A stretch of 64,000 nt of DNA. Source: an uncultured delta proteobacterium. GTDB lineage: Bacteria > Desulfobacterota > Binatia > UBA9968. The stretch is taken from positions 23,062 to 87,061 of the forward strand of contig CAVUZH010000002.1 in NCBI GenBank assembly GCA_963745835.1, given 5' to 3'. A program made the translations under genes and the position numbers. This document shows positions 12,386 through 63,776 of the stretch, piece by piece; the first letter of the stretch is position 1, and each line of letters starts with the position of its first letter. The notes below the pieces were generated by a model, which saw only the letters and a list, made by a program, of their open reading frames with translations, ran no database searches and was not told the origin of the DNA.

Positions 12386-13213
12386 ATGGAATCGAAGTCG
12401 CTTGGAGCGCGGGTTCTAGAAAAATCCATCGATCTACTCTATTCGTTTGAATCCTACCGTCCTGAGCAGTCGCTGTTTCAGATCAGTCGCAGCTTAGGAT
12501 TTCCCCCGAGCACGGTGCGTCGGCTCTTGAAGGTGATGATATCGCGGCGGTTGATCCAGCAGGATGCCGCGACCAAGCTCTATCGCCTCGGGCCTGGGCT
12601 CTTCTATCTGGCCTCGGTGGCGCGCGAGGGACTGGAGATCAGGAAGATTGCTCTGCCGTTGATGGAGCGCCTGCGCGATCTCACCGGAGAAAATGCAATA
12701 TTGCACGAATTGCGTGACTGCCAACGCGTGTGTATCGAGAAAGTCGAGAGCAGGGAAGTGCTGCGAGATTCTCTGCGTGTGGGCGATCAGTTTCCGGCGC
12801 ACGCGGGTGCGAGCGGCAAGATCCTCTTGGCGTATCTCCCTCCCCAGGAGCTCAAGGAGTTTTTGAAATCGGCGCACGGCTTGAAAGCGCTGACCCCGCG
12901 CACGATCACCGATCCGAAAAAACTCGCGGCGGATCTGGCTCGCACAAAGAGACAGGGATATTCCTATAGTTGCGGCGAGCGCGTCATGGACGGACTCTGC
13001 GCCATCAGCGCGCCGATCTTCGATAGCGAAGGCCGGGCACCCTACTCCCTGACGATTACCTTGACACCGTTCAGACTGCAGGCGAAGGGAAGAGGCAAGC
13101 TGGTGGAGGCCGTCAAGCGATTTGCCGCCGAGATCTCACATAAGCTCGGCAGCGGTAGCGCGAATTCCGTACCGACGGCGCGCGTAACCGGCGGCAGGCG
13201 AGTGCGACAATGA
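12386..13213 (+). CDS. IclR-family transcriptional regulator
   Basis: N-terminal HTH (GFPPSTVRRLL..YRLG), AHAGASGKILLA, TPRTITD and CAISAPIFD. Confidence 0.92.
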   Translation: MESKSLGARVLEKSIDLLYSFESYRPEQSLFQISRSLGFPPSTVRRLLKVMISRRLIQQDAATKLYRLGPGLFYLASVAREGLEIRKIALPLMERLRDLTGENAILHELRDCQRVCIEKVESREVLRDSLRVGDQFPAHAGASGKILLAYLPPQELKEFLKSAHGLKALTPRTITDPKKLAADLARTKRQGYSYSCGERVMDGLCAISAPIFDSEGRAPYSLTITLTPFRLQAKGRGKLVEAVKRFAAEISHKLGSGSANSVPTARVTGGRRVRQ

Positions 13214-14601
13214 CATATTCTAGAAATACGCGAGCGACAGCGGCGCAAAGCCTTGCCCGGTTCATCTGTGATCTAAGCTATGCGCAGATTCCGGCCGACG
13301 CTGTGTGGCGCTGCCGGGAGCTATTGTTGGATCAATTGGGTTGCCAGCTGATCGGCGCCAGTGTGCCGTGGAATCAGCCGGTCTATCGATTTGTAAAAAG
13401 CGCGAAAGGCGGTGGCCCGGCCAAGATCGTGAAGTATGCCGATCAGGTGCCGACCGACGACGCGGTTCTCGTGAATGGAACCTTCGCCCAGGGTTGCGAG
13501 CTCGACGATTACTACGATCAGGGCGGCGGCCATCCCGGCGCGGCAACAGTGCCCGTGATTCTCGCGCTCGCGCAGCAGCAGACGGTCAGCGGGCAGGAGC
13601 TCATCACAGCTATGGTCGGCGGCTATGAAGTCGGCTGGCGCATCGGCCGCGCGCTCTTGCCGGAATTGATGACGCGCGGCTATCACGCGCAGAGCGTGGT
13701 GGGCGTTTTCATCGCCGCCGCCGCCGCAGGCAAAATTCTTCGCCTCGATCCGGAGCAGATGACTCACGCTCTGGCGATCGCCGGCAGCCATTCCGGCGGT
13801 ACCATGGAGTACGACCAGAGCGGCGGCGAAGTGAAACGGTTACACAACGGTATGGCCTGCTGCGGCGGGCTCCGCTCCGCGCTGCTGGCGCAGAACGGCC
13901 TCACCGGACCGCCGACGATCTTCGAAGGCGAGCGCGGCATTCTGAAAGTCATGTCGGGGACCAGCAATGTCGAGCCGATCGTCAAGAACCTCGACGCCGG
14001 CAATGAAGATCTCGCGCTCTATCATGCGGCGATGAAGCGTTTTCCGGTGAATGCCAGCCAGCACTCGCCGATCGAGCTGCTCGACAGTCTGGTCCGCGAG
14101 CACAACATCGACCCGCGCCAGGTTACGAAGATCATTGTCGAGCTCAATGAAGGAATCCTGCTGCACGGCGGCACCATCTATCAGCCCAAGGAAGTCATCG
14201 AAGCCCAATTCAGCCTACGCTTTTCTCTCGCGCTGAGATTCCTTAGAGGCAACAACGATCTGCAGCATTATCTCGACCCGGCCATGTGGAGCGATTCGGC
14301 GATGCTGGAGATCGGCAGGAAAATCGACCTGCTTGCCGACCCTACGGCAACCGGTCCGCGCCGTTTCGCTTGCCGGATGACCATTTTGCTTTCGGACGGA
14401 CGTGAAATGAGCGGTTCGTTGGCGGCGCCCAAGGGCAGTTATAAGAACCCTCTGGCTCCCGGCGAATTGCAGGACAAATTTTACCGGCTAGGCAGGACGG
14501 TTCTGGATGACGAAAGGCTCGGTTCGATCGTCGCTGCGGTGGAGCGGATTGAAAACGCGCCAAACGTCGCGGCGCTGAGCACGCTCATGACGGCGGCGTG
14601 A
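13210..14601 (+). CDS. MmgE/PrpD-family protein
   Basis: LDQLGC, ELDD..GHPG, KRLHNG, FEGERG, KRFP and AQFSL. ATGA overlap with iclR. Confidence 0.9.
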   Translation: MTYSRNTRATAAQSLARFICDLSYAQIPADAVWRCRELLLDQLGCQLIGASVPWNQPVYRFVKSAKGGGPAKIVKYADQVPTDDAVLVNGTFAQGCELDDYYDQGGGHPGAATVPVILALAQQQTVSGQELITAMVGGYEVGWRIGRALLPELMTRGYHAQSVVGVFIAAAAAGKILRLDPEQMTHALAIAGSHSGGTMEYDQSGGEVKRLHNGMACCGGLRSALLAQNGLTGPPTIFEGERGILKVMSGTSNVEPIVKNLDAGNEDLALYHAAMKRFPVNASQHSPIELLDSLVREHNIDPRQVTKIIVELNEGILLHGGTIYQPKEVIEAQFSLRFSLALRFLRGNNDLQHYLDPAMWSDSAMLEIGRKIDLLADPTATGPRRFACRMTILLSDGREMSGSLAAPKGSYKNPLAPGELQDKFYRLGRTVLDDERLGSIVAAVERIENAPNVAALSTLMTAA

Positions 14602-15677: not shown

Positions 15678-17030
15678 ATGGACGCGGTCGAAGAAAAATT
15701 GGTTCGCTTTGCCGACTCGTTCGCTTTTGCCGATATCGAAGCACCCGTCCTGCACGCCATCAAGCTTCGCTTCATCGATACGATCGGCTGCGCTCTGGCG
15801 GGCTACCACGAAGCGCCGGCGAAGATCGCGCGGCGCCTCGCCGCACAAGTGCGCAGCTCCGAGGAAGCCGGCGTGATCGGCGCCACCGTCAAAACTTCGG
15901 CGGAGATGGCGGCGTTCGCCAACACGACCATGATCCGCTGCCTCGACTTGAACGACGACTATTTCGGCAAGGACGGCCCCCACCCCAGCGATCTGATCGG
16001 TGCGGTGCTGCCGGCATCGGAGATCGCGCAGGGAAACGGCTCGTCGTTCGTCGCCGCCGTCGCGGCTGCGTATGAGGTTCTTTGCACTCTCGTCGACTCG
16101 GTCGGCATCCGTGAGCGCGGTTGGGATTACGTCACCTACACCGCATTGGCCGCGGCGCTCGGCTCCGGCAAGGCGATGGGACTATCGCAGAAATCGTTGC
16201 GCGATTCTTTGAGCCTGGCGGCGACGGCGAATTGTTCGTTGGGACAAACCCGACTGGGCGAGCTTTCGATGTGGAAAGGTATGGCGTCAGCCAATGCCTG
16301 TCGCAATGGCCTCTTCGCGGCTCTGCTCGCACGCGCCGGGGTAAGCGGGCCCTTTTTGCCCTTCGAAGGGAAGGGCGGTTTTCTTCGGCAGGTCTGCGGC
16401 TCTTTGGATCTCTCCCGCCTGGGCGCGACGCCTTTGCGCGCGGGAATCGTTTATCTGAAAAACTGGCCGGTCTTCTACAGCGCGCAGGGAGCCGTCGATG
16501 CAGCGATCGAGCTGCGCGAGAAAGTCAGACCTGACGAAATCAAAACTCTAGTCGTGGAATCCTATCAGCGCTTGATCGGGCGCGGCGCCACGGACCCGGA
16601 AAAATGGACGCCGCAATCACGCGAGACCGCCGATCACAGTGTGCCCTTCTGCGTAGCGGCAGCGCTGCTCGACGGCGGCGTGACGGCGCAAACCTTCGAT
16701 GCGGCGCGGTTTCTCGATCGAGACGCGATCGAGCTGATGGCGAAAATCACTTTGCGGGAAGATCCGGAGTTCACGAAACAATATCCGGAAAAGTGGAACT
16801 GCCGCGTCGTCGCCGAAACATTTTCCGGCGCGCGGCACGAAGTCCATGTCGCCTATCCGAAAGGACATCCGGAGAATCCATTCTCGGACGCCGAAGTCGA
16901 GGACAAGTTTCTGCGGCTGGCGGAGTCGTCTCTCGGAAGAAGTCGCTGTCAAAAGTTCATCGATTGGGCTTGGCGGCTGGAGCAAGCGGAAGAGATCCGT
17001 GAGCTCTTTCCGCTGCTGGCAATTTCATGA
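15678..17030 (+). CDS. MmgE/PrpD-family protein, closest in motifs to 2-methylcitrate dehydratase
   Basis: DLND..HPSD, LSMWKG, ETADHS and KGHPENP are typical of the PrpD clade. Confidence 0.88.
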   Translation: MDAVEEKLVRFADSFAFADIEAPVLHAIKLRFIDTIGCALAGYHEAPAKIARRLAAQVRSSEEAGVIGATVKTSAEMAAFANTTMIRCLDLNDDYFGKDGPHPSDLIGAVLPASEIAQGNGSSFVAAVAAAYEVLCTLVDSVGIRERGWDYVTYTALAAALGSGKAMGLSQKSLRDSLSLAATANCSLGQTRLGELSMWKGMASANACRNGLFAALLARAGVSGPFLPFEGKGGFLRQVCGSLDLSRLGATPLRAGIVYLKNWPVFYSAQGAVDAAIELREKVRPDEIKTLVVESYQRLIGRGATDPEKWTPQSRETADHSVPFCVAAALLDGGVTAQTFDAARFLDRDAIELMAKITLREDPEFTKQYPEKWNCRVVAETFSGARHEVHVAYPKGHPENPFSDAEVEDKFLRLAESSLGRSRCQKFIDWAWRLEQAEEIRELFPLLAIS

Positions 17031-18890: not shown

Positions 18891-19907
18891 GTGAATTCCC
18901 GGCGTAATCTCATAAGCTTCATCGCAATAGCAATCATCGTGGTTTTCTTCGCCCAATCTGTCTCGGCGCAGGATCGCGATGCGATCATCGCCAAGGCAAA
19001 GGAAGAAAAAGTTTTCGTATATTACAGCACTACGGACATCCGCGACGGAACGGCGATGATCCATGCGTTCCAAAAGAAATATCCGTTCGTCGAGCCCAAG
19101 CTGCTGCGTCTCGGCAGCACGCAGGTCGTCGTCAAGGTGCTGCAGGAGCACCGCGGCGGCGTCCACTTGTTCGACGTCATCTCCGCGACCAGTTTCCAGT
19201 TCTATGAGATCTTCAAAGAGGGCCTCTTTCAAATGTACAACTCGCCGGAGCGGCCGGCATTTGCCGAGGATTTCAAAGACAAGGAAGGCTACTGGGTCAG
19301 CGCTTACCACAATGCCAGCGTGGTGTCATACAACACCAATCTGGTGAAGCCGCAGGAACTCCCCAAAAGCTACGACGATCTGCTCGATCCCAAGTGGAAA
19401 GGCAAAATGCTCATGGACAGCCGCGAGACCGAGTGGTACGCGAGCATGCTGCAAATTCTCGGCAGAGAAAAAGGCCTGCGCCTAATGCGCGGTTTGGCCA
19501 AACAAGAGTTGAGCTTTCGCCCGGGACGCACGCTGATCACCCAGGTATTGGCCTCGGGCGAGGCGCCGCTGGCGGTCAATAATTACGACCATCTCGTGCA
19601 GTCGGCCAAGAAGCGCGGCGCACCGGTGGAGTCTTTGCCGCTGACGCCGGTCGTCAGCCGGGTTACCCCGATCGCGCTCGGGCGCTACGCGCCGCATCCC
19701 AACATCGGCAAGCTGTTTATCGACTTTTCCCTTTCCGAGGAAGGCCAGAAAATTCTCCGCAGCTTCGGCCGCAGCTCGGCACGCAAAGGCATCGAGCCGG
19801 ACGACCTGCAGAGAAAAGGCATCAAGCTCTACGTCAGCGACATCGGCCTGGCGAAGGATTACGCGCGCTATGACAAAGAGTTCAAAGAAATTTTCGATTT
19901 AAAATGA
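18891..19907 (+). CDS. ABC-type extracellular solute-binding protein
   Basis: GTG start after AGGAGG, signal peptide, YNTNLV..PKSYDDLLDPKWKG and APHPN. Confidence 0.9.
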   Translation: MNSRRNLISFIAIAIIVVFFAQSVSAQDRDAIIAKAKEEKVFVYYSTTDIRDGTAMIHAFQKKYPFVEPKLLRLGSTQVVVKVLQEHRGGVHLFDVISATSFQFYEIFKEGLFQMYNSPERPAFAEDFKDKEGYWVSAYHNASVVSYNTNLVKPQELPKSYDDLLDPKWKGKMLMDSRETEWYASMLQILGREKGLRLMRGLAKQELSFRPGRTLITQVLASGEAPLAVNNYDHLVQSAKKRGAPVESLPLTPVVSRVTPIALGRYAPHPNIGKLFIDFSLSEEGQKILRSFGRSSARKGIEPDDLQRKGIKLYVSDIGLAKDYARYDKEFKEIFDLK

Positions 19908-19984
19908 TCGACGGTTGCGGCGTCACCACGCAGCGATTCACTCGACTATCCAGTAGAATCATCCGGCATACAGGAGAGGGAAAA

Positions 19985-21346
19985 ATGGCACGCGGCATTA
20001 CCGAACAATTGGCGATCCATACGGCGAAAGTGCGCTACGAAGACATTCCTCCCGAGGCAATCGAAAAAGCCAAAGATTGCATCCTCGATCAGATCGGGGT
20101 CGAGCTGATCGGTTCCACCCTGGAGTGGAATAAGATTGCCTACCGCTACGTCGCCGACATGGGAGGGCGCGGTGAAAGCACGGTGGTTAACTACGGCGAC
20201 AGAGTGCCGACTCTGGATGCGGCGTTCGTCAATGCAACCTTCGGTCAGGGCTGCGAGCTCGATGACGTCGGCTTTGCCGCGGGCGGCCACCCGAGCGCCG
20301 CTACCGTGCCGGTGGCGCTGGCCCTAGGTGAAAAGCAACGCAGCACGGGCAAAGATTTTCTCGCCGCCGTGGTCGTCGGCTGCGACGTCATGTACCGGCT
20401 GCTGGCGGCGGTTCGGCCTTCGTCGGGCAAGCGCGGGTTTCACAGCCACGGCATCGGCGCACCCTTCGGTGCGATGGCAACGGCAGCGAGACTGCTTGGA
20501 TTGAAAGAGGGGCAGATGCTGCATGCCTTCGGCATCGCCGGCATGCATTCGAGCGGCACCATGGAATACGATCAAACCGGCGGCGAGGTGAAGCGCGTGA
20601 TTGCCGGTGTCGGCGCGCGCAGCGGCATCCAGTCGGCGATGCTAGCCCAACTCGGGCTCACCGGTCCGCCGACCATCATCGAGGGCAAACGCGGGTTTCT
20701 TAAAGTCTTCGCCGATCTGGTGGAGCCAGAGGAAATCACCCGCGATCTCGGCAGTGAGTTCAAGATCATGCGCATCTGGTTCAAGCTTTATCCGTGCGTC
20801 GCCACCGTCCAGGGAGTGATCTACACGCTCAGCAAATTGATCGAAGAGCATCGCTTCGGGCCGGACGACGTCGAAGAAATCCGCGTCGGCATCTCCGAGA
20901 CTTCGCTGTCGCACGGCGGCGCGATTTACGAGCCGCACGATACTGCGAGCGCACAGTTCAGCCTGCCGTTCTCGTTGGCGATCCGCCTGTTGAAGAACGA
21001 CAACGATCTGAGCTTTTACATGGATCCCAAGCTGTGGACCGATCCGAAAGTTCTGGCGCTAGCCAAGAAAGTGAAGAGCTATGCCGACCCGAACGCGAAG
21101 AAGGACCAGAATTACAACACGACGATGGAAGTGAAGCTCACCAATGGCAAGAGTTACAAAGCGTTCGAGCCCTACCCCCCTGGCTCGCCGCTCAACATGG
21201 TCAGCCGTGACGTGTTGCGCGCCAAGTTTCGCAAGATGGCCCGCGCGGTATTACCCGAGAATCGGATCGACAGATTGATCGATGCCGTGGACCGGCTGGA
21301 AACCTGCAATGATACCGGCGAATTGCTCCCGCTGGTCGTGAAGTGA
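19985..21346 (+). CDS. MmgE/PrpD-family protein
   Basis: LDQIGV, GQGCELDD..GHPS, GTMEYDQTGGEVKR and AQFSLPF. Close paralog of 13210-14601. Confidence 0.9.
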   Translation: MARGITEQLAIHTAKVRYEDIPPEAIEKAKDCILDQIGVELIGSTLEWNKIAYRYVADMGGRGESTVVNYGDRVPTLDAAFVNATFGQGCELDDVGFAAGGHPSAATVPVALALGEKQRSTGKDFLAAVVVGCDVMYRLLAAVRPSSGKRGFHSHGIGAPFGAMATAARLLGLKEGQMLHAFGIAGMHSSGTMEYDQTGGEVKRVIAGVGARSGIQSAMLAQLGLTGPPTIIEGKRGFLKVFADLVEPEEITRDLGSEFKIMRIWFKLYPCVATVQGVIYTLSKLIEEHRFGPDDVEEIRVGISETSLSHGGAIYEPHDTASAQFSLPFSLAIRLLKNDNDLSFYMDPKLWTDPKVLALAKKVKSYADPNAKKDQNYNTTMEVKLTNGKSYKAFEPYPPGSPLNMVSRDVLRAKFRKMARAVLPENRIDRLIDAVDRLETCNDTGELLPLVVK

Positions 21347-55394: not shown

Positions 55395-57089
55395 ATGAGC
55401 TTCAATTCATCGACATACGTAAATTTCGTCTCCGCAGCGAGCGCCGCACAGGAGAGGCTTTTTTTGCAGTATCTGGGACATCGGTCCGACTTCGACATCA
55501 TTATCATCGGTTCGGGAATCGGCGGTGGCGTGCTGGGCGACGACCTTGCAGAGCGCCTGGGCAAGCACAAACGAATCCTGGTTTTGGAAGCCGGATCGTT
55601 TCTGTATCCAACCCACGTTTATAACGTTTGTCGTTTTCCGAACGCGAGTCTAGCCAAGCATTTCGGCTGCGGTACCTTCTGGCAGTCCGGGAACGAACAA
55701 TCACAAAACTATATCGGCGAGCAACCGCAACTCAATTTCGGTGGCCGTTCGATTTTCTGGTCCGGCCTGATCCCGTCGATTCAGGGATGGGAGCTCGAAT
55801 TCTTTCCTGATCGCGTAAGACAGGATCTGCAGAGCGGCCTACTTGCGAGAGCAGGCGAGACGATGAACGAATCGCGATCGATGGGGACGACGGCGCAGGC
55901 GATCGTCAGCAAGCTGCGGCAGAGTCCGTTGGCGCAGGACTTTTCGATTCAGGAGACGCCGCGTGCGCTGCACCAGCCTTATTTGACGTCGGAGGGCGTT
56001 CCCAGCGATCAATTTTTTACCGAACCGACCGGTGTATTTAACACCGCGGAGCTGCTCATCAACCAGGCGGGCCTGACTCCGGGTGTAAACCATGGCGATG
56101 GTCCGGGAGTCCAGCTTCTACTGAATCATTTCGTCGAGGATGTGCAGAATGCCGATGGTAATCGTTTCGAGCTTGTGACGCGCAATACCCTGACTGGCCA
56201 AATACGAAATTTCAATGCCGGCACAGTGGTGCTGGCCGGAGGCTCCATCGAGAGTCCGAAGCTGTTGCGCCGCTCGAGCCTATTTCCCTGGCTGCCTGAT
56301 GGCGTCAAAAGTCTGGTGGGGCGCGGTCTCACAGACCACCCGACCAGCAATGAGATTACCACGTTCGTGACTAACATCGGCAACGTGCCGATACCGAAAG
56401 ATTCGCATGCCAAGATTGTCTTCTACTCGCGCGGTTTACGCGATTCGCAGAACCAGATTCGGTATCCGTTTAATGTCGAGATGAACATCAACCACGAATA
56501 CTGGCATCTCCGCGAGAATGATCCGAAGGAGAGGGATTCAGGCGGTGCGATGCCCAACGCTAACAGCGGCGCCTCCAGAGTCGATATCAAGTTTAGCTTC
56601 GGCAACTGTCTCGATAACACCAACGAGGTTCTGCCGGCCCCTCCGTTCGGGTATGTGCCCCAAGTAAATTTCCGAAACTTGAAATGGATGGACCATCTGG
56701 CGCAATCGCGTTTTCCAGCGCTTGCGGGTTGGCAGAAAAGCTACGATGAAATTTTTGCCGTGCTCAATCAGGTGACGTACCAAATTTTCTCGCAATTTCA
56801 GCAGGACGGGCACGAAGCCCGGCCACTAAACGAGAGCTGGTATGGCATGGACGGCAAGGGTTTCGGGTGGGGCACGGTGCATCACGCGGCCGGTAGCCTC
56901 CGCATGCCGCACCGGACGAGGTATGACGGACCCATCGAGTCGCAATCAGTTGTGGACGAGAATTTACGCGTTGTCGGCACACAGCATCTTTATGTCTGCG
57001 ATATGTCGGTGATGCCGTTCAGTTCGGCAGCGAATCCGGTGCGAACACTGGTTGCGCTCGCTCTGCGGTTATCGACGCACTTTGGATAG
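55395..57089 (+). CDS. GMC-family FAD oxidoreductase
   Basis: GSGIGG, LEAG, GGRSIFWSG, ESPKLL, TDHP, HHAAGS, DMSVMP and ANP. Confidence 0.85.
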   Translation: MSFNSSTYVNFVSAASAAQERLFLQYLGHRSDFDIIIIGSGIGGGVLGDDLAERLGKHKRILVLEAGSFLYPTHVYNVCRFPNASLAKHFGCGTFWQSGNEQSQNYIGEQPQLNFGGRSIFWSGLIPSIQGWELEFFPDRVRQDLQSGLLARAGETMNESRSMGTTAQAIVSKLRQSPLAQDFSIQETPRALHQPYLTSEGVPSDQFFTEPTGVFNTAELLINQAGLTPGVNHGDGPGVQLLLNHFVEDVQNADGNRFELVTRNTLTGQIRNFNAGTVVLAGGSIESPKLLRRSSLFPWLPDGVKSLVGRGLTDHPTSNEITTFVTNIGNVPIPKDSHAKIVFYSRGLRDSQNQIRYPFNVEMNINHEYWHLRENDPKERDSGGAMPNANSGASRVDIKFSFGNCLDNTNEVLPAPPFGYVPQVNFRNLKWMDHLAQSRFPALAGWQKSYDEIFAVLNQVTYQIFSQFQQDGHEARPLNESWYGMDGKGFGWGTVHHAAGSLRMPHRTRYDGPIESQSVVDENLRVVGTQHLYVCDMSVMPFSSAANPVRTLVALALRLSTHFG

Positions 57090-57157: not shown

Positions 57158-58204
57158 CTATGTTGCTAGCAATAGATATCGATGGTCGTCGCGACATAAC
57201 TTTGTGCCGAACGTGGAAGACAGCCGAGCGACGTTGTCCATAATTGCAGCTGATCCTGGTTGGTCAGGTCCTAATAAAGCAGGCTGCTCTTTTTCGTTGA
57301 GCGCGCTTGGAATGGCAGCGATTGTCGATATCTTATGATTGCGTAGCTCTGCCACGGCGACCAAACCATTTCGATATCCCCGAGCCGGTTTAAAATCTGA
57401 TCCGAAGATAAAATTACCCAAACTATAAAAGATCGGTTTCCCTTTGTAGATTTCCACGGCTTGGATAACGTGTGGGTGGCTTCCGACCACCAGATCGGCG
57501 CCGGCGTCGACAGCCGACCGTCCCAAGGTGGTCTGATACTGGCAGACTTCGTACTGACCCGAAACTCCCCAATGGAAATAGACGATCACGACGTCCACTT
57601 TTTTGCGGAGTTCGATGATGTCGTTCCTTACTTCTTGGAGCTGCTTTTCATCGGGATGGGTCAGGGTCGTCGCAGGCGCGCCGGGCATCTCAAAAAGTCG
57701 CCGATGGGGCTCATACGAAGTATAAACTTTCACACTCGCAACGCCCGCTTTGCTTTCAGTCGCCGCCTGTCCGACCGGCCAAAATACCGACGTATAGGAA
57801 AGCAGACCGAACGTTGTATCCTTCGCTCCGAATATCGCGGGGCGCCGCGCTTCCCTGACGTTCATCCCGGCGCCGGCATGTCCGATATTGTATTTCTCGA
57901 GTAAAGACAGAGACTGTTTTATTGCATCGTCTCCGAAATGAACGTTGTTGGCGCAAGCGGCGGCGTTGATTTTGAGTTCAGCGAGCACGTTAACAAAGTC
58001 TCGATTGCAATGGCGCCAACCCGGCTTATGCTGAAGCAACACGTCGGGATCGAAAAGACACCCTTCAAGATTGCAGATTTTCACATCGAAAGCGTCGAAA
58101 TCTTCCCTCACCAGATCCAGCACATTCGCTGGTTCGATTGGGCTGCCGAGATTGATGTCTCCCACTAATGCCAGCGACAAATCGCGCTGCGTGTCACTCG
58201 CCAT
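57158..58204 (-). CDS. CapA/PgsA-family metallophosphatase-fold protein
   Basis: VGDIN, NLEG, ANNVH, FHWG, GSHPHV and YSLGNF. Confidence 0.88.
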   Translation of the reverse strand: MASDTQRDLSLALVGDINLGSPIEPANVLDLVREDFDAFDVKICNLEGCLFDPDVLLQHKPGWRHCNRDFVNVLAELKINAAACANNVHFGDDAIKQSLSLLEKYNIGHAGAGMNVREARRPAIFGAKDTTFGLLSYTSVFWPVGQAATESKAGVASVKVYTSYEPHRRLFEMPGAPATTLTHPDEKQLQEVRNDIIELRKKVDVVIVYFHWGVSGQYEVCQYQTTLGRSAVDAGADLVVGSHPHVIQAVEIYKGKPIFYSLGNFIFGSDFKPARGYRNGLVAVAELRNHKISTIAAIPSALNEKEQPALLGPDQPGSAAIMDNVARLSSTFGTKLCRDDHRYLLLAT

Positions 58205-58333: not shown

Positions 58334-58419
58334 ACCCTGAAAATGGGATATGGGTTTTTTGCGTTTATCACTTGCCCGTCGATTCGATACCAGCATTTCA
58401 ATATAGAGGAGAGCGCTTC

Positions 58420-59799
58420 ATGAACGAGACGAGCGACCTAGCCAAATGGATGGTGGGGTTGAAATGGGTGGACATTCCCCGCGGAGTCATCGACTATTCG
58501 AAAATTCTTGTTCTCGATACCCTGGGCTGCATGTTAGGCGGATCGATTCAGGACAGTAATAAAGCTGCCCTTCGTTATACTCGCGCAATGGGCGGCTCGC
58601 CCGATTCAACGGTGGTCAATTATGGAGACCGAACCAACCCTTTTAACGCCGCCTTTATAAATGCTTCCTTCGGCCACGGTTGGGACTTCGACGACATGAT
58701 CAATGCCGGCGCGGGGCATGCCGTGAGCGCTTGTACGGCCGCGACGATGGCGTTGGCGGAAAAAGAAATTATTAGCGGGAGAGAGTTTCTCGAGGCTTGG
58801 ATCACGGGTTACGAAGTCTCCAATCGTGTCGGCGCCGCCACAAAGCCGGGGCACTTGAAACGGGGTTTTCACGAGGTCGGGACGATCGGTCCCTTTGCTG
58901 GAAGCGCTGCCGCAAGTAAAATCTTGCGGTTGAACGAATGGCAAAGCGAGAATGCAATTGGGATTACCGTGAGCCAGGCGGCCGGAACCTTCCAGCACAG
59001 CCAGACCACCGGCGGCGCGATCAAGAGGTGTCATGCCGGTTTTGCGGCGGCGAGCGGAGTTCGATCGGCGTTGTTAGCAAAGGAAGGAATGACGGCTGCA
59101 AGGGAAGCTCTTGAAGGCAAGAAGGGCTTTGTCTTGTGCCACGCCGGGGACGAGAATGACATGGACGCGATTACGCGAGACCTGGGTGAGGACTGGTATA
59201 CGACCAAAGCGGCTATGAAACCATACTCGTGTTGCGCGGGCCAGTACGGCATGCTCGACATTATCTATAAGATGAAGGGGAAATACGACCTCAAGCCGGA
59301 AAATATTGAAAGCATCAAGCTCTGGGGCAGCATCCGAAATCTGTGGATGGTAGGCACGATCAAAGGTGAAGAGGTCAAGGATATCTTCGGCGCGCAGTTC
59401 AGCGCCAGATTCGGCGTGGGTCTGGCGTTGGTCGTGGGAGAAAACCGGATCAAAGCTTATCACCAGAATATTCCGCCTTTTGGCAAATGGGCAGAAGTTG
59501 TCGAACTGGCTAAAAAAGTGGACGTGTACAACGACGACGAGATTCCGGAACGCGGCCCCATCTTCGGTTATGCGAAATGCGAAATCCAATTAAAAGACGG
59601 TCGCACGTTGAAGGGTGAGTCGGGATCGCCCATGGGTTTTCCGGGTAACCCGATGCAACGGGAAGAGCGTCTGGAAAAGTTTTACGGTCAGGCGTTGCTA
59701 GTCCAGACTAAAGAAAAGGCCGACAGGATTGTCGAACTGGTTGAGAATCTCGAAAACCTAGAGGATATCCGGCCGATCGTCAGAAATATGATTTGCTAG
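58420..59799 (+). CDS. MmgE/PrpD-family protein
   Basis: LDTLGC, DFDD..GH, RGFH, KRCHAG, LEGKKG, KPYSCC, AQFS and GFPGNPM. Confidence 0.9.
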   Translation: MNETSDLAKWMVGLKWVDIPRGVIDYSKILVLDTLGCMLGGSIQDSNKAALRYTRAMGGSPDSTVVNYGDRTNPFNAAFINASFGHGWDFDDMINAGAGHAVSACTAATMALAEKEIISGREFLEAWITGYEVSNRVGAATKPGHLKRGFHEVGTIGPFAGSAAASKILRLNEWQSENAIGITVSQAAGTFQHSQTTGGAIKRCHAGFAAASGVRSALLAKEGMTAAREALEGKKGFVLCHAGDENDMDAITRDLGEDWYTTKAAMKPYSCCAGQYGMLDIIYKMKGKYDLKPENIESIKLWGSIRNLWMVGTIKGEEVKDIFGAQFSARFGVGLALVVGENRIKAYHQNIPPFGKWAEVVELAKKVDVYNDDEIPERGPIFGYAKCEIQLKDGRTLKGESGSPMGFPGNPMQREERLEKFYGQALLVQTKEKADRIVELVENLENLEDIRPIVRNMIC

Positions 59800-59821
59800 A
59801 TTGGTTACGGTCGAGAGCGAC

Positions 59822-60763
59822 ATGAGCGAAGGATCCGAGTTCGATATTGTTATCATCGGCGGAGGAGTCGCTGGCCTTAGCGCTGCATTGTTCGCGGCGC
59901 GCTTCGGACATTCGACAATGGTCATTGAGCGCTTTGCGCCCGGCGGTCATTTGGTGAACGTCGAGAGCATCGAGGACTTTCCCGGGTTTCCGAACGGCGT
60001 GCCGGGGTATGAGCTCGGTCCACTAATGCAAGAGCAAGCCGCTAAATATGGTGCTGAGTTTCAAATGGCCGAGGTCGAAAGCATTGAGGCGGTGGAATCG
60101 TACTGGCAAGTGAACACCGCTGAAGGCATCTGTCGCGCCAAAGCGGTGATCGTCGCAACCGGGTCTCATCCAAAGGATCTGGGCGTGCCGCGTGAGAGCG
60201 CACTGCGTGGGCAAGGGGTTTCTAATTGCGCCAGTTGCGACGGACCTCTGTTTACCGATCAAGTGGTCGGAGTTGTCGGCGGAGGGAGTTACGCCCTGCA
60301 GGAAGCGTTAACCTTGGTAAACCACGCCTCTCAAGTGATCTTGTTTCACGATCAAAGAACGCTCTCCGCTCCGCAGACTCTCCAGCAAAGAGTGCTCAGC
60401 CATCCTAAAGTAGCCGCGCGCTACAATACGACGGTGGAAGAGATCCAGGGAGATGATGCAGTTACGGGTGCCGCGGTTCGCGATACCCTCACCGGAGAAA
60501 AATCTCAAGTTCAGCTCGCCGGGATGTTCATATATGCAGGCTTGGAGCCGAACACGGACTTTTTGAAAAACCTTCTGCGGTTGGATCACGATAATCGGGT
60601 GCCAACTGATGGCTGGATGCGGACTGAACTCCCGGGTCTGTTCGCGGCAGGAGATTTACGAACGGACTGCGCGGGGCTGGCGATTACCTCAGCTGGTGAT
60701 GGTGCAGCCGCGGCTATAGGAGCTCACGGATACCTCGAAGACCGGGTATGGAGACAAAAGTAG
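59822..60763 (+). CDS. Thioredoxin reductase-like flavoprotein with an atypical pyridine-nucleotide site
   Basis: GGGVAG, DFPGF, ATGS, GVSNCASCDG and GLFAAGD. It has GGGSYALQEA and HDQRTLS where GGGD/NxAxEEA and HRRxxxR are expected. Confidence 0.88.
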   Translation: MSEGSEFDIVIIGGGVAGLSAALFAARFGHSTMVIERFAPGGHLVNVESIEDFPGFPNGVPGYELGPLMQEQAAKYGAEFQMAEVESIEAVESYWQVNTAEGICRAKAVIVATGSHPKDLGVPRESALRGQGVSNCASCDGPLFTDQVVGVVGGGSYALQEALTLVNHASQVILFHDQRTLSAPQTLQQRVLSHPKVAARYNTTVEEIQGDDAVTGAAVRDTLTGEKSQVQLAGMFIYAGLEPNTDFLKNLLRLDHDNRVPTDGWMRTELPGLFAAGDLRTDCAGLAITSAGDGAAAAIGAHGYLEDRVWRQK

Positions 60764-60877
60764 CACCTGGGGACTGCGGAACGACGCACGATATCTCCAT
60801 GTAAATTTCGTCTAAAAATGAGATAGACGTATCATGCTTTTTAGCAGAGCGTATAAGAAAAGGGAGGGCAGCAACCT

Positions 60878-61453
60878 ATGAATGGCTTCATTGTATTAGA
60901 TCCTGTGGGTATTCCTCAGAAGGGTACCAGGAAGCCGCTGAAAGGCGTGGAAAATCTTGAGGGCAAGAGGATTGGTTTTATTTGGGGGATGCATGAGCTC
61001 TCAACTAAGTTTTGGCCAGTTTTAGAAGAGGAGATAGTCGGCGCGCTCAAGCCCCGCGAGGTTCACCGAGTGCACAAGAATGACAAAACTGATGGAAGAG
61101 CTAAGGGGAATACCTGGATCCCGGCGCCATTGCGAATAATCGAGGAAGCCGCATCAAAGGTCGACTATGCGGTTCTAGGTGTCGGGGCTTGAGGGTCCTG
61201 CACATCTGCCGCCGTGCGTGACACGGTAAATATGGTAAAGCTCGGGACTCCATCAGTTGTATTTGTCCACGAACCTTTCGAGAGACTCGCCAGAGCTCAG
61301 ATGAGGCAACTCGGAATAGAAGATTCAAAACCCTTTGTGATCGTCTATCCAGTCGATCGACCGTCCGCCGATTCCCAGGAGACAGTGCGTAAAAAAGCAA
61401 AAGAACAACTCCAGCGCATACCTGATTTGCTCAAGGTCCAACAGTGGCGGTGA
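60878..61453 (+). CDS. UGSC-family selenoprotein, 191 aa, Sec encoded by TGA 61190-61192 (codon 105)
   Basis: ORFs 60878-61192 and 61214-61453 are in frame with no other stop between them. Read-through gives KVDYAVLGVGA-U-GSCTSAAVRDTVNMVKLGTPSVVFVHEPF. The start at 60878 has RBS GGGAGG; the second fragment has none. Confidence 0.85.
61193..61225 (+). promoter_or_regulatory. Candidate bacterial SECIS hairpin
   Basis: Just 3' of the UGA: GTC(61195-97)-CT-GCAC(61200-03)-ATCTGCCGCC-GTGC(61214-17)-GT-GAC(61220-22). Confidence 0.5.
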
Positions 61454-61567
61454 CTGGTAACCGCTGTCGATGGCGACGAAGCTGCTCATGCGGTGAACGA
61501 ATTGGATCGACAGAGAGGCTTCATTGGTGCTCAGCGCATCGGGGTCGCGTGACAAAGGAGTAGAATC

Positions 61568-62662
61568 ATGAGCCTGCAAAATTACAAATTGACTTCGCAG
61601 CAGTACCAAGTCGAGGACGTCGATGCGTTCGCAGATCTGGCCTATGAGAAGGGCTGGACCGATGGTATGCCCGTGTTCCCTCCGACACTCAAGAAAGTGA
61701 CGGCGATCATCGACTATTTGAAACGGCCACCTGACGAGGCGCTCGGCATCGTTTCTCCTGGCGAAGGAGTCGCGACGATCGAGAAGATCGCAATCAATTG
61801 TGCGATGGCCGGCTGCAAGCCGGAATATGTTCCGGTGGTGCTTGCCGCTTTGGAAGCGATACTGGACCCGAATTTTCATATTTTGAGTGCCCAATGCAGT
61901 ACATTCGGTGGTCCTCCCCTGGCTATTATTAGCGGACCTGTGGTCAAGAAGCTTGGCTTTAATCATTCCGAGGGAGCCCTCGGTGGTTCGGGTCATCGGG
62001 TAAACGCCACCATTGGCCGCGCAATCCGCTTGATCCTGTGGAACATCGGTCAGGGCAAGCCGGGAGAACTTTCGAAAACCGTGTTCGGTGGACCGGCGCG
62101 CTGGCATTCATTGATCGCTGAACGGCCGAGAGAAGAAGGGAATCCCTGGGATGAGTTCCACGTCGATTACGCCGGGTTAGATGCTCAGGATAGCGCTGTG
62201 TCGATGCTAGGCGCCAATGGCAAGGTTGTATCGTGCGGCTTTGCAGCCTCATCGATCGACGATAACATCTCGACAATAGCAAACGACATCAAAGGAGACG
62301 GCGTAGCGGCCGCTCCCCATGTCTTCGTGCTCAATCCGCAGGGAGCTAGAATTTTAGCGGATGCGGGCTGGAGCAAGGAGCGTTTCCGGGACGCAGTTTA
62401 TGAGCAATGCTATGTTCAGGTGAGAGATATCAAAAAAGTAGCCAGCCAGGCTTCACCGACTAGTGTCTACTACTGGATGAAGAGGATCAGTCCGGACAAT
62501 GACGATGCGAAACTCTTTACCATCGCTGAGCCCAGCCATTTGAAAATCTTGGTGTCGGGAGGCTTTGGCGGCAGTCATGTGTGCTATCACTTCAGAGGCA
62601 GTACGCATTCGCTAACCGGCTCGGGCTTGGTTACAAAAAAGATCAACTGGAATTGGGACTAA
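61568..62662 (+). CDS. Conserved protein of unknown function of the type that accompanies or is fused to UGSC selenoproteins
   Basis: KGWTDGMPVFPPT, ATIEKIAINCAMAGCKPEY, GHRVNATIGRAIRL, AE..NPW and LADAGWSK; RBS AAGGAG. Confidence 0.8.
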   Translation: MSLQNYKLTSQQYQVEDVDAFADLAYEKGWTDGMPVFPPTLKKVTAIIDYLKRPPDEALGIVSPGEGVATIEKIAINCAMAGCKPEYVPVVLAALEAILDPNFHILSAQCSTFGGPPLAIISGPVVKKLGFNHSEGALGGSGHRVNATIGRAIRLILWNIGQGKPGELSKTVFGGPARWHSLIAERPREEGNPWDEFHVDYAGLDAQDSAVSMLGANGKVVSCGFAASSIDDNISTIANDIKGDGVAAAPHVFVLNPQGARILADAGWSKERFRDAVYEQCYVQVRDIKKVASQASPTSVYYWMKRISPDNDDAKLFTIAEPSHLKILVSGGFGGSHVCYHFRGSTHSLTGSGLVTKKINWNWD

Positions 62663-62717
62663 TGCAGAGAGCTTGAGTTACAGAAACAAAATCTTTATTG
62701 CATCGCAGGGGATTACA

Positions 62718-63776
62718 ATGAAAAAAGTTTCATTCTCAACGGCTTTGTGTTGTTGGGTCCTGTTCTCGGTATGCTTCCTTGGCTTTAATGCTTCCCTTCA
62801 CGCTCAAACAGACTCCTACTATAAAGGCAAAACTGTCACGATCGTAGTGGGCGTCTCTCCCGGTGGCGCCTATGATGTGTGGGCGCGGCTGATCGCGCCG
62901 CACCTAAGCAAACACATCCCCGGCAATCCGCAGGTCATCGTTCAAAATATGCCCGGCGCCGGGAGTCTAGTCGCCGCTAACTACGTTCACAACGTTGCCA
63001 AGCCTGACGGTTTGACCACGGTGATGCCGGCCAACCGATTGTATATCGATCAAATCGTCGGCCGCGCAGAGGTCAAGTACGATGTGCGAAAATTCGCATG
63101 GATCGGCAACCCGCAGAGATATTACACGGTGATCTATATGCGCGCCGATGCGCCATATAAGTCCATAGCGGACATCATCAGCGCGAAAGAACCACCCAAA
63201 TGCGGTGCGCCTGGGACAAACAGCGCCGGCTACACTCTTTCGCAACTCCTCGAAGAAGCTATAGGAGCCAAGTTCGAATTTGTGTTGGGGTATCCCGGCG
63301 CTAGTGAAATCGACTTGGCAGTTGAAAGAGGAGAAGTCATTTGCCGCGGTCACGATATCATCAATCACTTCAGTGGAAGCACGTACAGGGCTTGGCACGA
63401 AAGAGGGTTTGACCGCCACATCGTTCAAGACTCGCCCAAAAGAGACCCAAAACTGCCGGATACACCGACCATTTATGAGCTCATGGATAAATACAAAACA
63501 TCTCAGATCGCCCGCAATGTCACCGAGTTCATTTCAGCAAGCGCTGAGTTTGGCCGGCCGATGCTGACCTCGCCAGGAACTCCGGCGGACCGAGTAAAAA
63601 CTTTACGCGAAGCTTACGCGAAGACGATGCAAGATCCGGGATTTATTGCGCAGACGAATAAAGCAAAATTGGTATTGCAACCTTCTACCGGCGAAGAGCT
63701 ACAGGCATTGGTAGAACGGATCATGAACCAACCTCCGGAGGTCATTGAGCGCGTGAAGAAAATATTAAACGAATAG
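62718..63776 (+). CDS. TTT (Bug/TctC) substrate-binding protein
   Basis: SPGGAYDVWAR, QNMPGAGS, AKPDGLT, GYPG..AVERGE and FGRP. Confidence 0.9.
   Translation: MKKVSFSTALCCWVLFSVCFLGFNASLHAQTDSYYKGKTVTIVVGVSPGGAYDVWARLIAPHLSKHIPGNPQVIVQNMPGAGSLVAANYVHNVAKPDGLTTVMPANRLYIDQIVGRAEVKYDVRKFAWIGNPQRYYTVIYMRADAPYKSIADIISAKEPPKCGAPGTNSAGYTLSQLLEEAIGAKFEFVLGYPGASEIDLAVERGEVICRGHDIINHFSGSTYRAWHERGFDRHIVQDSPKRDPKLPDTPTIYELMDKYKTSQIARNVTEFISASAEFGRPMLTSPGTPADRVKTLREAYAKTMQDPGFIAQTNKAKLVLQPSTGEELQALVERIMNQPPEVIERVKKILNE

What the first reader, a model, noticed from the sequence alone, without database searches (positions are those of the whole stretch)
60878..61453. Hidden selenoprotein: an in-frame UGA joins two ORF fragments into a UGSC (UxxC) protein
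Seen: GGG GCT TGA GGG TCC TGC ACA TCT continues in frame to a stop at 61453, giving one 191-aa protein with U-G-S-C. This is a substitution-type stop at a motif position, unlike the indels elsewhere in the window. Known: UGSC-motif selenoproteins are a recognised family of unknown function. The context VDYAVL..UGSCT..GTPSV parallels the active site of glycine/proline reductase selenoproteins GrdB/PrdB (VDAVILTSTUGTCT..GIPVV). Inference: a small GrdB-like redox subunit that standard gene callers split.
Basis: partly seen in the sequence, partly recalled or inferred. Interest (0 to 1): 0.88.

Follow-up and report, generated by a model that had tools for sequence, protein, structure and literature searches.

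The report
UGSC-family selenoprotein with obligate partner gene
The in-frame TGA is a genuine selenocysteine codon in a divergent member of the already known UGSC selenoprotein family, whose function is still unknown and which sits next to a partner gene it almost always accompanies.

Summary
Frame 60878..61453 is open except for TGA 61190-61192. Read through, it gives a 191-aa protein with U105-G-S-C108.

It is a real selenoprotein gene:
- It matches Pfam UGSC (PF24696) at 94.7 bits across the TGA.
- The genome has selA, selB, selD and tRNA-Sec.
- All 7 UGSC paralogs in the genome carry one TGA, as do 84 of 88 hits in 41 related genomes.
- Contigs from three independent studies keep the TGA.
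- Sequence after the TGA evolves as coding sequence.

The family has been described since 2007-2008, so this is a new, divergent member and not a discovery.

Profile comparison aligns Sec with Sec at 92-95% probability and still finds the same alignment with the motif masked. Curated GrdB models weakly hit 8 of 16 UGSC proteins.

Every UGSC gene examined (36 of 36) is next to or fused with a ~360-aa protein that has no Pfam family. A thioredoxin-reductase-like gene is adjacent here and at 3 other paralog loci.

My reading, which is inferred, is that these genes make a two-component selenium-dependent reductase.

The parts
60862..60868 (+). Shine-Dalgarno-like GGGAGGG, 9 nt upstream of the ATG
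   Evidence: read directly
60878..61453 (+). UGSC-family selenoprotein gene, 191 aa, terminal stop TGA 61451-61453
   Evidence: Pfam PF24696 at 94.7 bits (cut-off 25) over residues 6-185; NF041046 at 70.6 bits, below its cut-off of 125
61190..61192 (+). UGA codon for selenocysteine 105, in the motif U-G-S-C
   Evidence: kept in homologs, in a same-genus assembly and in contigs of three public DNA runs
61211..61227 (+). Candidate SECIS hairpin: stem GCCGUG/CACGGU (6 pairs including one G.U) with apical loop CGUGA. The loop starts 24 nt after the UGA.
   Evidence: Fold. A Chloroflexia-MAG ortholog (L093) keeps the same register with U-A changed to U.G and G.U changed to G-C. By energy alone it is not distinctive: 23% of 2072 in-frame coding positions in the window fold as well.
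61568..62662 (+). Partner gene, 364 aa, from an uncharacterised family with no Pfam or NCBIfam model. Cys83 in the motif MAGC is invariant.
   Evidence: 7 of 7 genome copies sit at UGSC loci, 2 of them fused; 29 of 29 relatives' loci; alignment A4; AF2 model with pLDDT 92
59801..60763 (+). Thioredoxin-reductase-like flavoprotein, 320 aa, with a CASC redox motif
   Evidence: TIGR01292 at 307.8 bits (cut-off 343.45) and Pyr_redox_2; 4 of its 5 genome paralogs lie within 4 kb of UGSC loci
58372..59799 (+). MmgE/PrpD-family gene; its stop is 1 nt before the TrxR-like start
   Evidence: an MmgE/PrpD homolog lies within 4 kb in 14 of 80 partner loci
62673..63776 (+). TctC-type (tripartite tricarboxylate transporter) solute receptor, 10 nt after the partner gene
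   Evidence: TctC is the commonest immediate neighbour of the gene pair elsewhere (26 of 121 neighbours)

Best explanation
Window 60878-61453 encodes a 191-aa selenoprotein of the UGSC family.

Shown:
- UGA-105 is conserved as UGA, or as Cys, across the family.
- The genome has the full Sec-insertion machinery.
- The gene is under purifying selection on both sides of the UGA.

Inferred:
- SelB with Sec-tRNA(Sec) decodes the UGA with the help of the hairpin at 61211-61227.
- The protein adopts a five-stranded beta/alpha (flavodoxin/Rossmann-like) domain, with Sec105 at the end of strand 3 and the start of helix 3. This domain is a remote homolog of the Sec-bearing C-terminal (PrdB-like) domain of glycine/proline reductase selenoprotein B.
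- It is the redox subunit of a two-component enzyme. Its obligate companion is the 364-aa protein encoded just downstream, which is fused to UGSC in two paralogs of this genome and in many database proteins.

Proposed cycle, by analogy with GrdB/PrdB: Sec105 attacks a substrate held by the partner, Cys108 resolves the adduct to a selenenylsulfide, and the adjacent thioredoxin-reductase-like flavoprotein re-reduces it with NAD(P)H.

The MmgE/PrpD and TctC genes in the same apparent operon point to an imported carboxylate as substrate. I put the core (true UGSC selenoprotein working with the partner) at about 0.85-0.9, the reductase cycle at about 0.4-0.5, and the carboxylate substrate at about 0.3.
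For: Family:
- PF24696 at 94.7 bits spanning the UGA.
- U105 and C108 are invariant in a 16-sequence alignment at 17-28% identity to ours.

Sec usage:
- selA 608.6 bits, selB 394.3 bits and selD 383.4 bits (itself with one TGA) are clustered on C22. tRNA-Sec scores 74.2 bits with anticodon tca.
- 7 of 7 UGSC paralogs in the genome have one TGA.
- 84 of 88 hits in 41 genomes have one TGA.
- 74 of 77 domains next to partner genes across several phyla have TGA at the column.

Not an error:
- The same-genus assembly G006 is identical at 110 of 111 nt.
- Contigs of X1, X4 and X13, from three studies, span the codon unchanged. X13 differs at 5 other places, so it is another strain.

Coding after the UGA:
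- Against a 79%-identical ortholog (L091) there are 23 synonymous and 15 non-synonymous codon differences after the UGA, and 34 of 53 base differences fall at third positions.

SECIS:
- A hairpin lies at the same place in every subfamily.
- The commonest type shows covariation: 5 of 9 pairs have double changes, 92.4% of cells are paired, and 0 of 500 shuffles reach this.

GrdB relation.

Fold: AF2 pLDDT 74.9, pTM 0.74, order b-a-b-a-b-a-b-a-b-a. Foldseek's best hits are flavodoxin-like folds.

Partner:
- tblastn finds exactly 7 genome copies, all at UGSC loci, and 2 of them are fused.
- 29 of 29 relatives' loci have it.
- 72 of 80 partner loci in public genomes carry UGSC on the same strand.

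TrxR-like: 4 of 5 genome paralogs lie at UGSC loci, and the CASC motif is intact.

Operon: same strand, gaps of 1, 114, 114 and 10 nt, and no + strand terminator-like site between the genes.
Against: - The hairpin after this particular UGA is weak. Its energy is -9.4 kcal/mol, and 23% of in-frame coding positions in the window fold as well. A 76-nt fold had z -0.61. Rfam found nothing in the window.
- Only one informative ortholog (L093) supports the hairpin's register.
- The protein scores below NCBIfam's UGSC cut-off (70.6 against 125) and lacks the family's LDNxKxN motif.
- One 117-aa database fragment at 77% identity (P0272) reads Ser at the Sec position.
- No GrdB model hits this protein itself. 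With UxxC masked, the hhalign probability falls to 31-39%. The N-terminal half alone is not significant, at probability 1.7.
- No solved GrdB/PrdB structure exists to compare folds.
- TrxR-like adjacency is not general: 4 of 80 partner loci, two of which are near-identical to the window.
- 8 of 80 partner loci show no UGSC. Three of these have full flanks and two hold tandem partner genes.
- The partner's resemblance to class I fumarate hydratase is weak (TM 0.25-0.29) and is not seen by profile comparison (probability 0.5).
- Physical binding, the substrate and selenium incorporation are untested.
- The RNA-library contigs do not cover the UGA itself.
Confidence: 0.85

Rival explanations
1. 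[quoted passage not shown] Its neighbours are then incidental.
For: A passage of PMC2398784 calls the family likely Trx-like. The UxxC motif sits at a helix N-terminus, as in thioredoxins. A TrxR-like gene is adjacent. Automatic cluster names in the Atlas read 'Thioredoxin family' and 'Thiol-disulfide oxidoreductase family'.
Against: The AF2 model alternates five strands and five helices. The 50 listed Foldseek PDB hits are flavodoxin/Rossmann-like, with no thioredoxin-fold entry among them. No Trx-family Pfam or NCBIfam model hits it, whereas GrdB models do hit the family. The partner is adjacent or fused in 36 of 36 UGSC genes examined, which a free-standing redoxin would not need.
Confidence: 0.1
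2. The TGA is a nonsense mutation or an assembly error, and the gene is a pseudogene.
For: Table 11 splits the frame. The genome bin has 9.33% contamination. Two database relatives (P0273, P0274) are frameshifted near the site. The local hairpin is not distinctive by energy.
Against: The same TGA appears in a second assembly and in contigs from three studies. It is kept in orthologs at 79% nucleotide identity and in a Chloroflexia MAG. Differences after the TGA cluster at third positions. All 7 paralogs and 84 of 88 relatives' hits carry one TGA at the motif.
Confidence: 0.02
3. The UGA mainly terminates translation, so a 104-aa N-terminal fragment is the working product. Sec insertion would be rare, or a second ORF from GTG 61214 would be translated on its own.
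For: The SECIS candidate for this gene is weak. Database gene calls end exactly at ...GVGA (P0275, P0276).
Against: The Pfam domain and the AF2 fold need both halves: strand 3 lies before the UGA and helix 3 after it. The motif Cys108 and the conserved G-x-P-x-V strand lie after the UGA. Cys-containing homologs are continuous proteins.
Confidence: 0.03

Closest known systems
UGSC-containing selenoprotein family (Pfam PF24696; NCBIfam NF041046; Zhang and Gladyshev metagenome surveys)
   Same: It has the U-G-S-C motif, a length of about 180-200 aa and a Pfam match above the gathering score. It uses Sec far more often than Cys: passages of PMC2398784 give 255 Sec against 21 Cys forms, and here 84 of 88 and 74 of 77 hits have TGA. 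Fusion to an unknown domain is reported there as 'Unknown_1'.
   Different: It is a divergent subfamily. It scores 70.6 bits against NF041046's cut-off of 125 and is 17-28% identical to the other members aligned. It has FIWGMHELS in place of the LDNxKxN motif, a 9-residue insertion, and YP in place of HP. Its SECIS-like hairpin is in a different register from the common type.
Glycine/sarcosine/betaine/D-proline reductase selenoprotein B (GrdB/GrdF/GrdH/PrdB; TIGR01918, PF07355)
   Same: Both show strand - U-x-x-C - helix - G-[IL]-P-x-V strand. hhalign aligns UGSC 94-185 with GrdB 344-428, Sec on Sec, and in global mode UGSC 1-191 with GrdB 203-434. GrdB models hit 8 of 16 UGSC members. As I recall, not from any call, thioredoxin reductase supplies electrons in classical grd operons; a TrxR-like gene is adjacent here.
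   Different: UGSC is about 190 aa against about 430, with no GrdB N-terminal domain. No GrdB or PrdB model hits this protein. The companion protein shows no profile similarity to GrdB (probability 0.1), and I did not compare it with GrdE/PrdA. The genome also has three true GrdB-like Sec proteins and one PrdB-like one elsewhere.
Thioredoxin / thioredoxin reductase systems
   Same: There is a two-residue-spaced redox pair at a helix N-terminus, and an adjacent low-Mr TrxR-like flavoprotein with a CxxC motif (CASC).
   Different: The predicted fold is not thioredoxin-like. The TrxR-like protein scores below the TIGR01292 cut-off (307.8 against 343.45) and is a paralog of a separate copy on C13.
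Class I (Fe-S) fumarate hydratase fold, as a look-alike of the partner protein only
   Same: Foldseek's top 16 PDB hits for the partner model are Leishmania major fumarate hydratase chains (E 1.6e-4 to 1e-3, probability 0.89-0.96), followed by the M. jannaschii enzyme. The best local profile match puts the partner's invariant MAGCxPEY on the hydratase's TAGCPPY.
   Different: TM-scores are only 0.25-0.29 and the profile match is not significant (probability 0.5). The partner has a single invariant Cys, so I see no three-Cys cluster site. The role of the TAGCPP Cys in the hydratase is recalled, not tested.

Membership tests
Bacterial selenoprotein gene (UGA decoded as Sec) | In-frame UGA with protein conservation on both sides | tested here: met
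   The Pfam match covers residues 6-185 across U105. Alignment A2 has invariant columns before and after the UGA. Differences after the UGA are biased to third positions.
Bacterial selenoprotein gene (UGA decoded as Sec) | Homologs carry Sec (TGA) or Cys at the aligned column | tested here: met
   84 of 88 hits and 74 of 77 domains have TGA. CxxC is present in 6 of 10 full-length fusions read. Exceptions: P0272 has Ser, and P0053, P0070 and P0149 lack Cys at the column.
Bacterial selenoprotein gene (UGA decoded as Sec) | SECIS stem-loop shortly 3' of the UGA, with G/U in the apical loop | tested here: inconclusive
   For this gene there is a 6-pair hairpin with loop CGUGA 24 nt after the UGA. 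It is kept in L093 with one-sided changes, but its energy is not unusual and there is no Rfam hit. For the common family type, covariation is clear. The spacing and loop criteria are recalled from the bacterial SECIS literature.
Bacterial selenoprotein gene (UGA decoded as Sec) | selA, selB, selD and tRNA-Sec in the genome | tested here: met
Bacterial selenoprotein gene (UGA decoded as Sec) | Selenium actually incorporated | not testable with these tools
   This needs 75Se labelling or mass spectrometry.
UGSC family (PF24696 / NF041046) | Score above Pfam's gathering threshold | tested here: met
   94.7 bits against 25
UGSC family (PF24696 / NF041046) | Score above NCBIfam's equivalog cut-off | tested here: not met
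   70.6 bits against 125. It is a divergent subfamily and would not be named by this model.
UGSC family (PF24696 / NF041046) | U-G-S-C motif | tested here: met
   U105-G-S-C108
GrdB/PrdB selenoprotein B (TIGR01918, PF07355, TIGR04483) | Match to the family models above cut-off | tested here: not met
   No GrdB or PrdB model is hit by this protein at E <= 1, and there is no PF07355 hit. The relation is seen only in profile-profile comparison and in other UGSC members.
GrdB/PrdB selenoprotein B (TIGR01918, PF07355, TIGR04483) | Sec in UxxC (or UxxS) at the homologous position of the C-terminal domain | tested here: met
   hhalign places U on U.
GrdB/PrdB selenoprotein B (TIGR01918, PF07355, TIGR04483) | Companion pyruvoyl proprotein (GrdE/PrdA) | not tested
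   The companion here is a different, uncharacterised family. I compared it with GrdB only (probability 0.1), not with GrdE/PrdA models.
Thioredoxin-fold oxidoreductases | Thioredoxin fold | tested here: not met
   The AF2 model is b-a-b-a-b-a-b-a-b-a (pLDDT 74.9). The Foldseek PDB list holds flavodoxin-like folds only. The model's confidence is moderate, and the VIA-align check could not be run.

The most novel reading that the evidence does not exclude
UGSC proteins, their ~360-aa partners and, in some lineages, a dedicated TrxR-like flavoprotein form a widespread and so far unrecognised class of selenium-dependent substrate reductases. In this reading the Sec domain descends from the PrdB/GrdB selenoprotein-B domain. 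The catalytic partner is a non-pyruvoyl protein of a fold with no solved relative, at most faintly like class I fumarate hydratase, and it uses one invariant Cys. The enzymes would reduce carboxylates taken up by tripartite tricarboxylate transporters.
Probability: 0.3. Interest if true: 0.7.

Novelty: new member of a known kind. Interest (0 to 1): 0.35.

Why it matters
[quoted passage not shown] Passages of PMC2398784 give 255 sequences in 37 samples. They are still listed as uncharacterised in a 2026 review (passages of PMC13188914).

This gene adds little by itself. Its practical point is annotation. Gene callers cut it in two, and NCBI's family model would miss it.

The wider value is a testable hypothesis for the whole family. 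It has a Rossmann-like, GrdB/PrdB-related Sec domain rather than a thioredoxin fold. It has an obligate partner protein with no family model, although that partner family has 4225 cluster representatives at E <= 0.001. In this lineage it also has a dedicated TrxR-like reductase.

This genome carries seven such modules plus three GrdB-like selenoproteins and one PrdB-like one. That makes it a good place to study how Sec-dependent reductases diversify.

Tried and rejected
Fold searches:
The fold statements therefore rest on Foldseek alone.
- Sequence search of the PDB gave nothing useful for UGSC (best E 0.05), for GrdB (0 hits) or for the partner (0 hits at E <= 10).

I give no verdict on binding from that route.

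Partner protein:
- Against GrdB and against UGSC there is no profile similarity (probability 0.1 each).
- Against class I fumarate hydratase the match is not significant with one sequence or with 29 (probability 0.5). I keep it only as a weak lead from Foldseek.
- The Atlas searches gave only 'hypothetical' clusters and clusters partly carrying PF24696.

Other checks:
- Rfam at gathering thresholds found nothing in the window.
- Hairpin energy as a SECIS test for this gene was not discriminating.
- RNA run X15: contigs lie on both sides of the UGA (60757-61006 and 61218-61467) but do not cover it, and DNA carry-over in that library cannot be excluded. I make no claim of expression.
- A scan of the window for other in-frame TGAs with a redox motif found none besides this one.

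Literature limits:
- Supplementary Figure S1A of PMC2398784 (the UGSC/Unknown_1 fusion) could not be seen. That 'Unknown_1' is the partner family described here is my inference.
- 'Not in print' rests on two searches. The terms UGSC + selenoprotein gave 9 papers, of which I read passages of 4. The terms PF24696 / NF041046 / 'UGSC family' gave 1 paper. None of the passages I read mentions a GrdB relation or a TrxR-like neighbour. I did not read the papers in full.

Unpublished genomes:
- The tallies include G012 (2 of the 88 rows). Those include G018.
- I left loci L074 and L176 (both G018) out of the alignments. No locus of G012 was fetched.

Rows dropped:
- L029 matched no motif pattern, so 35 of 36 loci were folded.
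- L091 and L092 were left out of the neighbour census as near-copies of the window.
- Neighbour ORFs over 560 aa were dropped.
Full report
**The observation**

TGA sits at 61190-61192 in the context GGG GCT TGA GGG TCC TGC. The frame from ATG 60878 to the terminal TGA at 61451-61453 has no other stop. Reading TGA as U gives 191 residues with U105-G-S-C108. Under table 11 the stretch falls into ORFs of 104 and 79 aa. A GGGAGGG run lies 9 nt before the ATG.

**Is the UGA a selenocysteine codon?**

Several independent lines say yes.

- Family match. One Pfam model, UGSC (PF24696), matches residues 6-185 across the UGA at 94.7 bits against a cut-off of 25.
- Machinery. The genome is 7.28 Mb in 25 contigs, 97.1% complete with 9.33% contamination. 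It has selA (608.6 bits), selB (394.3 bits) and selD (383.4 bits, itself with one in-frame TGA) side by side on contig 22. It also has a tRNA-Sec at 74.2 bits with anticodon tca.
- Paralogs and relatives. The genome has 7 UGSC-family matches, each with exactly one TGA. In 41 related genomes, 34 have the family. Of 88 matches, 84 have exactly one TGA, and the other 4 are pieces that stop before or start after the Sec column. This tally includes two rows from the unpublished genome G012.
- Independent assemblies. A same-genus assembly (G006) has the syntenic gene with the same TGA, at 110 of 111 nt identity around it. Contigs of three public DNA runs from three different studies span the codon with no other letter there. 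One of them differs at five other places, so it comes from another strain.
- Purifying selection. Against an ortholog at 79% nucleotide identity (L091), codons after the UGA show 23 synonymous against 15 non-synonymous differences, and 34 of 53 base differences are at third positions. A Chloroflexia-MAG ortholog (L093) keeps the TGA and both halves.

The weak point is the SECIS element.

- For this gene, a 6-pair hairpin (61211-61227, apical loop CGUGA, 24 nt after the UGA) is present. L093 keeps it with two one-sided, pair-preserving changes.
- Its energy is ordinary, because 23% of 2072 in-frame coding positions in the window fold as well. Rfam reports nothing.
- At family level the evidence is good. 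Every subfamily has a hairpin at this place. In 39 sequences of the commonest type, 5 of 9 pairs show double changes, and 0 of 500 shuffles reach this.

**Which family, and is it known?**

It is known. 'UGSC-containing protein' is called a selenoprotein of unknown function in PMC1976440 (passages). PMC2398784 lists it as one of the major families of the ocean-sampling selenoproteome, with 255 Sec and 21 Cys forms. That paper calls it 'likely' Trx-like in fold and notes a fusion to a domain called Unknown_1 (passages). It is still listed as uncharacterised in 2022 and 2026 reviews (passages).

The present gene is a divergent member.
- It scores 70.6 bits on NCBIfam NF041046 against a cut-off of 125.
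- It is 17-28% identical to the other members aligned.
- It has an altered first-strand motif and a 9-residue insertion.

In a 5.8-billion-protein collection, its only near-length relatives are five 105-127-aa pieces. Two end exactly at ...GVGA, two are frameshifted near the site, and one (P0272) reads Ser at the Sec position. Gene callers do split it.

**Fold and the GrdB/PrdB parallel**

An AlphaFold2 model built from a 16-sequence alignment has mean pLDDT 74.9 and pTM 0.74. It alternates five strands and five helices, with U105 between strand 97-103 and helix 106-121. Foldseek finds only flavodoxin/Rossmann-like folds in the PDB, at TM up to 0.47 and no hit below E 1e-3. No thioredoxin-fold entry is in the list.

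The genome also encodes three true GrdB-like selenoproteins (motifs UGTS and UGTC) and a PrdB-like one. These gave a test set.

- Local profile comparison. The UGSC profile aligns with GrdB profiles over 82-84 columns (UGSC 94-185 with GrdB 344-428), Sec on Sec. Probability is 86.6 with 3 GrdB sequences and 91.9 with 31.
- Masked control. With the four motif columns masked in both profiles, the same alignment returns at E 5e-4 (probability 31). With eight columns masked it returns at E 3e-4 (probability 39).
- Null controls. Thirty column shuffles reach at most a score of 20.9, and the reversed profile gives probability 0.7.
- Global mode. UGSC 1-191 aligns with GrdB 203-434, the PrdB-like domain, at probability 95.2. 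The N-terminal half alone is collinear but not significant.
- Curated models. Independently, TIGR01917 (GrdB) is the second most frequent hit of UGSC members, at 8 of 16 with best E 4.5e-4. This protein itself does not hit it.

I conclude that the UGSC domain is probably a compact relative of the Sec-bearing domain of selenoprotein B. It is not a member of that family. No solved GrdB/PrdB structure exists to check this.

**The partner and the neighbourhood**

The 364-aa ORF just downstream (61568-62662) has no Pfam or NCBIfam match.

- In this genome. tblastn finds exactly seven copies, one at each UGSC locus. In two loci it is fused to the C-terminus of a USTC-motif UGSC domain.
- In relatives. 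All 29 UGSC loci fetched from relatives have it within 1.5 kb.
- From the partner's side. A scan of public genomes gave 80 loci from Thermodesulfobacteriota, Chloroflexota, Betaproteobacteria, Binatia, Rokubacteria and others. Of these, 72 carry a UGSC domain on the same strand, and 74 of the 77 domains have TGA at the motif.
- Exceptions. Three of the eight exceptions end at a contig edge, two hold tandem partner genes, and three have full flanks without UGSC.
- Family size. The partner family has 4225 cluster representatives at E <= 0.001, all unnamed or 'hypothetical'.
- Fusions in databases. Of the ten full-length fusions I read, six have CxxC, one CxxS, one SxxC and two neither.
- Structure. 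The partner's model is confident (pLDDT 92). It has one invariant Cys, in the motif MAGC. It has no sequence relative in the PDB. Foldseek's best hits are class I fumarate hydratases, but at TM 0.25-0.29, and profile comparison does not confirm them.

Upstream lies a TrxR-like flavoprotein with an intact CASC motif, just below the TrxR equivalog cut-off. Of its five paralogs in the genome, four lie within 4 kb of UGSC loci. Elsewhere this link is rare, at 4 of 80 loci.

The commonest immediate neighbour of the pair elsewhere is a TctC-type solute receptor, at 26 of 121 neighbours. One follows the partner here. An MmgE/PrpD gene precedes the TrxR-like gene, and MmgE/PrpD homologs lie within 4 kb at 14 of 80 loci.

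The five genes share a strand with gaps of 1, 114, 114 and 10 nt. No terminator-like site lies between them on the + strand.

**How it most likely works**

Shown:
- It is a Sec-type UxxC protein.
- Its gene is essentially always paired or fused with one particular partner.
- In this lineage it often sits next to a dedicated TrxR-like gene.

Inferred:
- The two proteins form one enzyme.
- Sec105 is the nucleophile, and Cys108 resolves the adduct to a selenenylsulfide, as proposed for PrdB/GrdB. That mechanism is recalled from the literature on those enzymes and was not tested here.
- The TrxR-like protein recycles the selenenylsulfide with NAD(P)H.
- The substrate is a carboxylate brought in by the TctC system.

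**Verdict**

This is a correct and careful first-stage call on an ordinary object. It is a new, divergent member of a known selenoprotein family in a selenoprotein-rich genome.

The parts that go beyond the passages I read in print concern the whole family. These are the GrdB-type rather than Trx-type domain, the near-obligate partner, and the TrxR-like neighbour. They remain hypotheses. I could not see the supplement of PMC2398784 that shows the earlier-reported fusion.

Noticed in passing
G000 contigs C17:2351-2878, C3:664148-664660, C17:15130-15639, C3:315326-315835, C20:54536-55009, C15:89738-90208 (loci L001-L004, L006, L007): There are six further UGSC paralogs, each with one TGA. L006 and L007 are about 550-aa fusions of a USTC-motif UGSC domain with the partner domain.
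   Followed up: yes
G000 C3:761351, C3:675066, C3:1196342 (L058-L060) and C14:594232 (L061): The genome has three GrdB-like selenoproteins (motifs UGTS and UGTC) and one PrdB-like selenoprotein (FPFUPAYH), all ending at a TGA under table 11. One relative (G022) has 20 GRDB-family matches, so this lineage has a large expansion of Sec-dependent reductases. The GrdB-like gene L059 lies about 11 kb from the UGSC locus L002.
   Followed up: partly
G000 C22:65479-70161: selA, selB and selD lie in a row, and selD itself has an in-frame TGA (a Sec-type SelD).
   Followed up: partly
window 13210-14601, 15678-17030, 19904-21346 and 58372-59799: The window holds four MmgE/PrpD-family paralogs, and tblastn finds 18 hit rows across the genome. 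It also holds five NMT1-like and several other solute-binding proteins, three TctC receptors and an IclR regulator. The window looks like a carboxylate/organic-acid uptake and catabolism region. The genome has 109 tblastn hit rows for TctC.
   Followed up: partly
L057 (G006 C11:55000-68000): In the same-genus assembly the syntenic genes (PGA_cap, TrxR-like, partner, TctC) appear broken into several ORFs, as if by indel errors. The UGSC gene's TGA region is intact.
   Followed up: no
proteins P0009, P0012, P0081 (713-741 aa); locus L094: Some proteins consist of two tandem partner domains without a UGSC domain. One Dehalococcoidia locus has four partner genes in a row with no UGSC gene in the stretch held.
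   Followed up: no
protein P0272 (117 aa, 77% identical to the N-terminal part): This database fragment reads Ser where this gene has Sec (GVGA-S-GSCTS). It could be a natural Ser variant or a translation or assembly artefact.
   Followed up: no
window 57158-58204 (- strand) and 55395-57089 (+ strand): A PGA_cap-family gene, weakly like the lasso-peptide epimerase MslH, and a GMC-oxidoreductase-like gene lie just upstream of the operon. The first also recurs in L091, L092 and L126.
   Followed up: no
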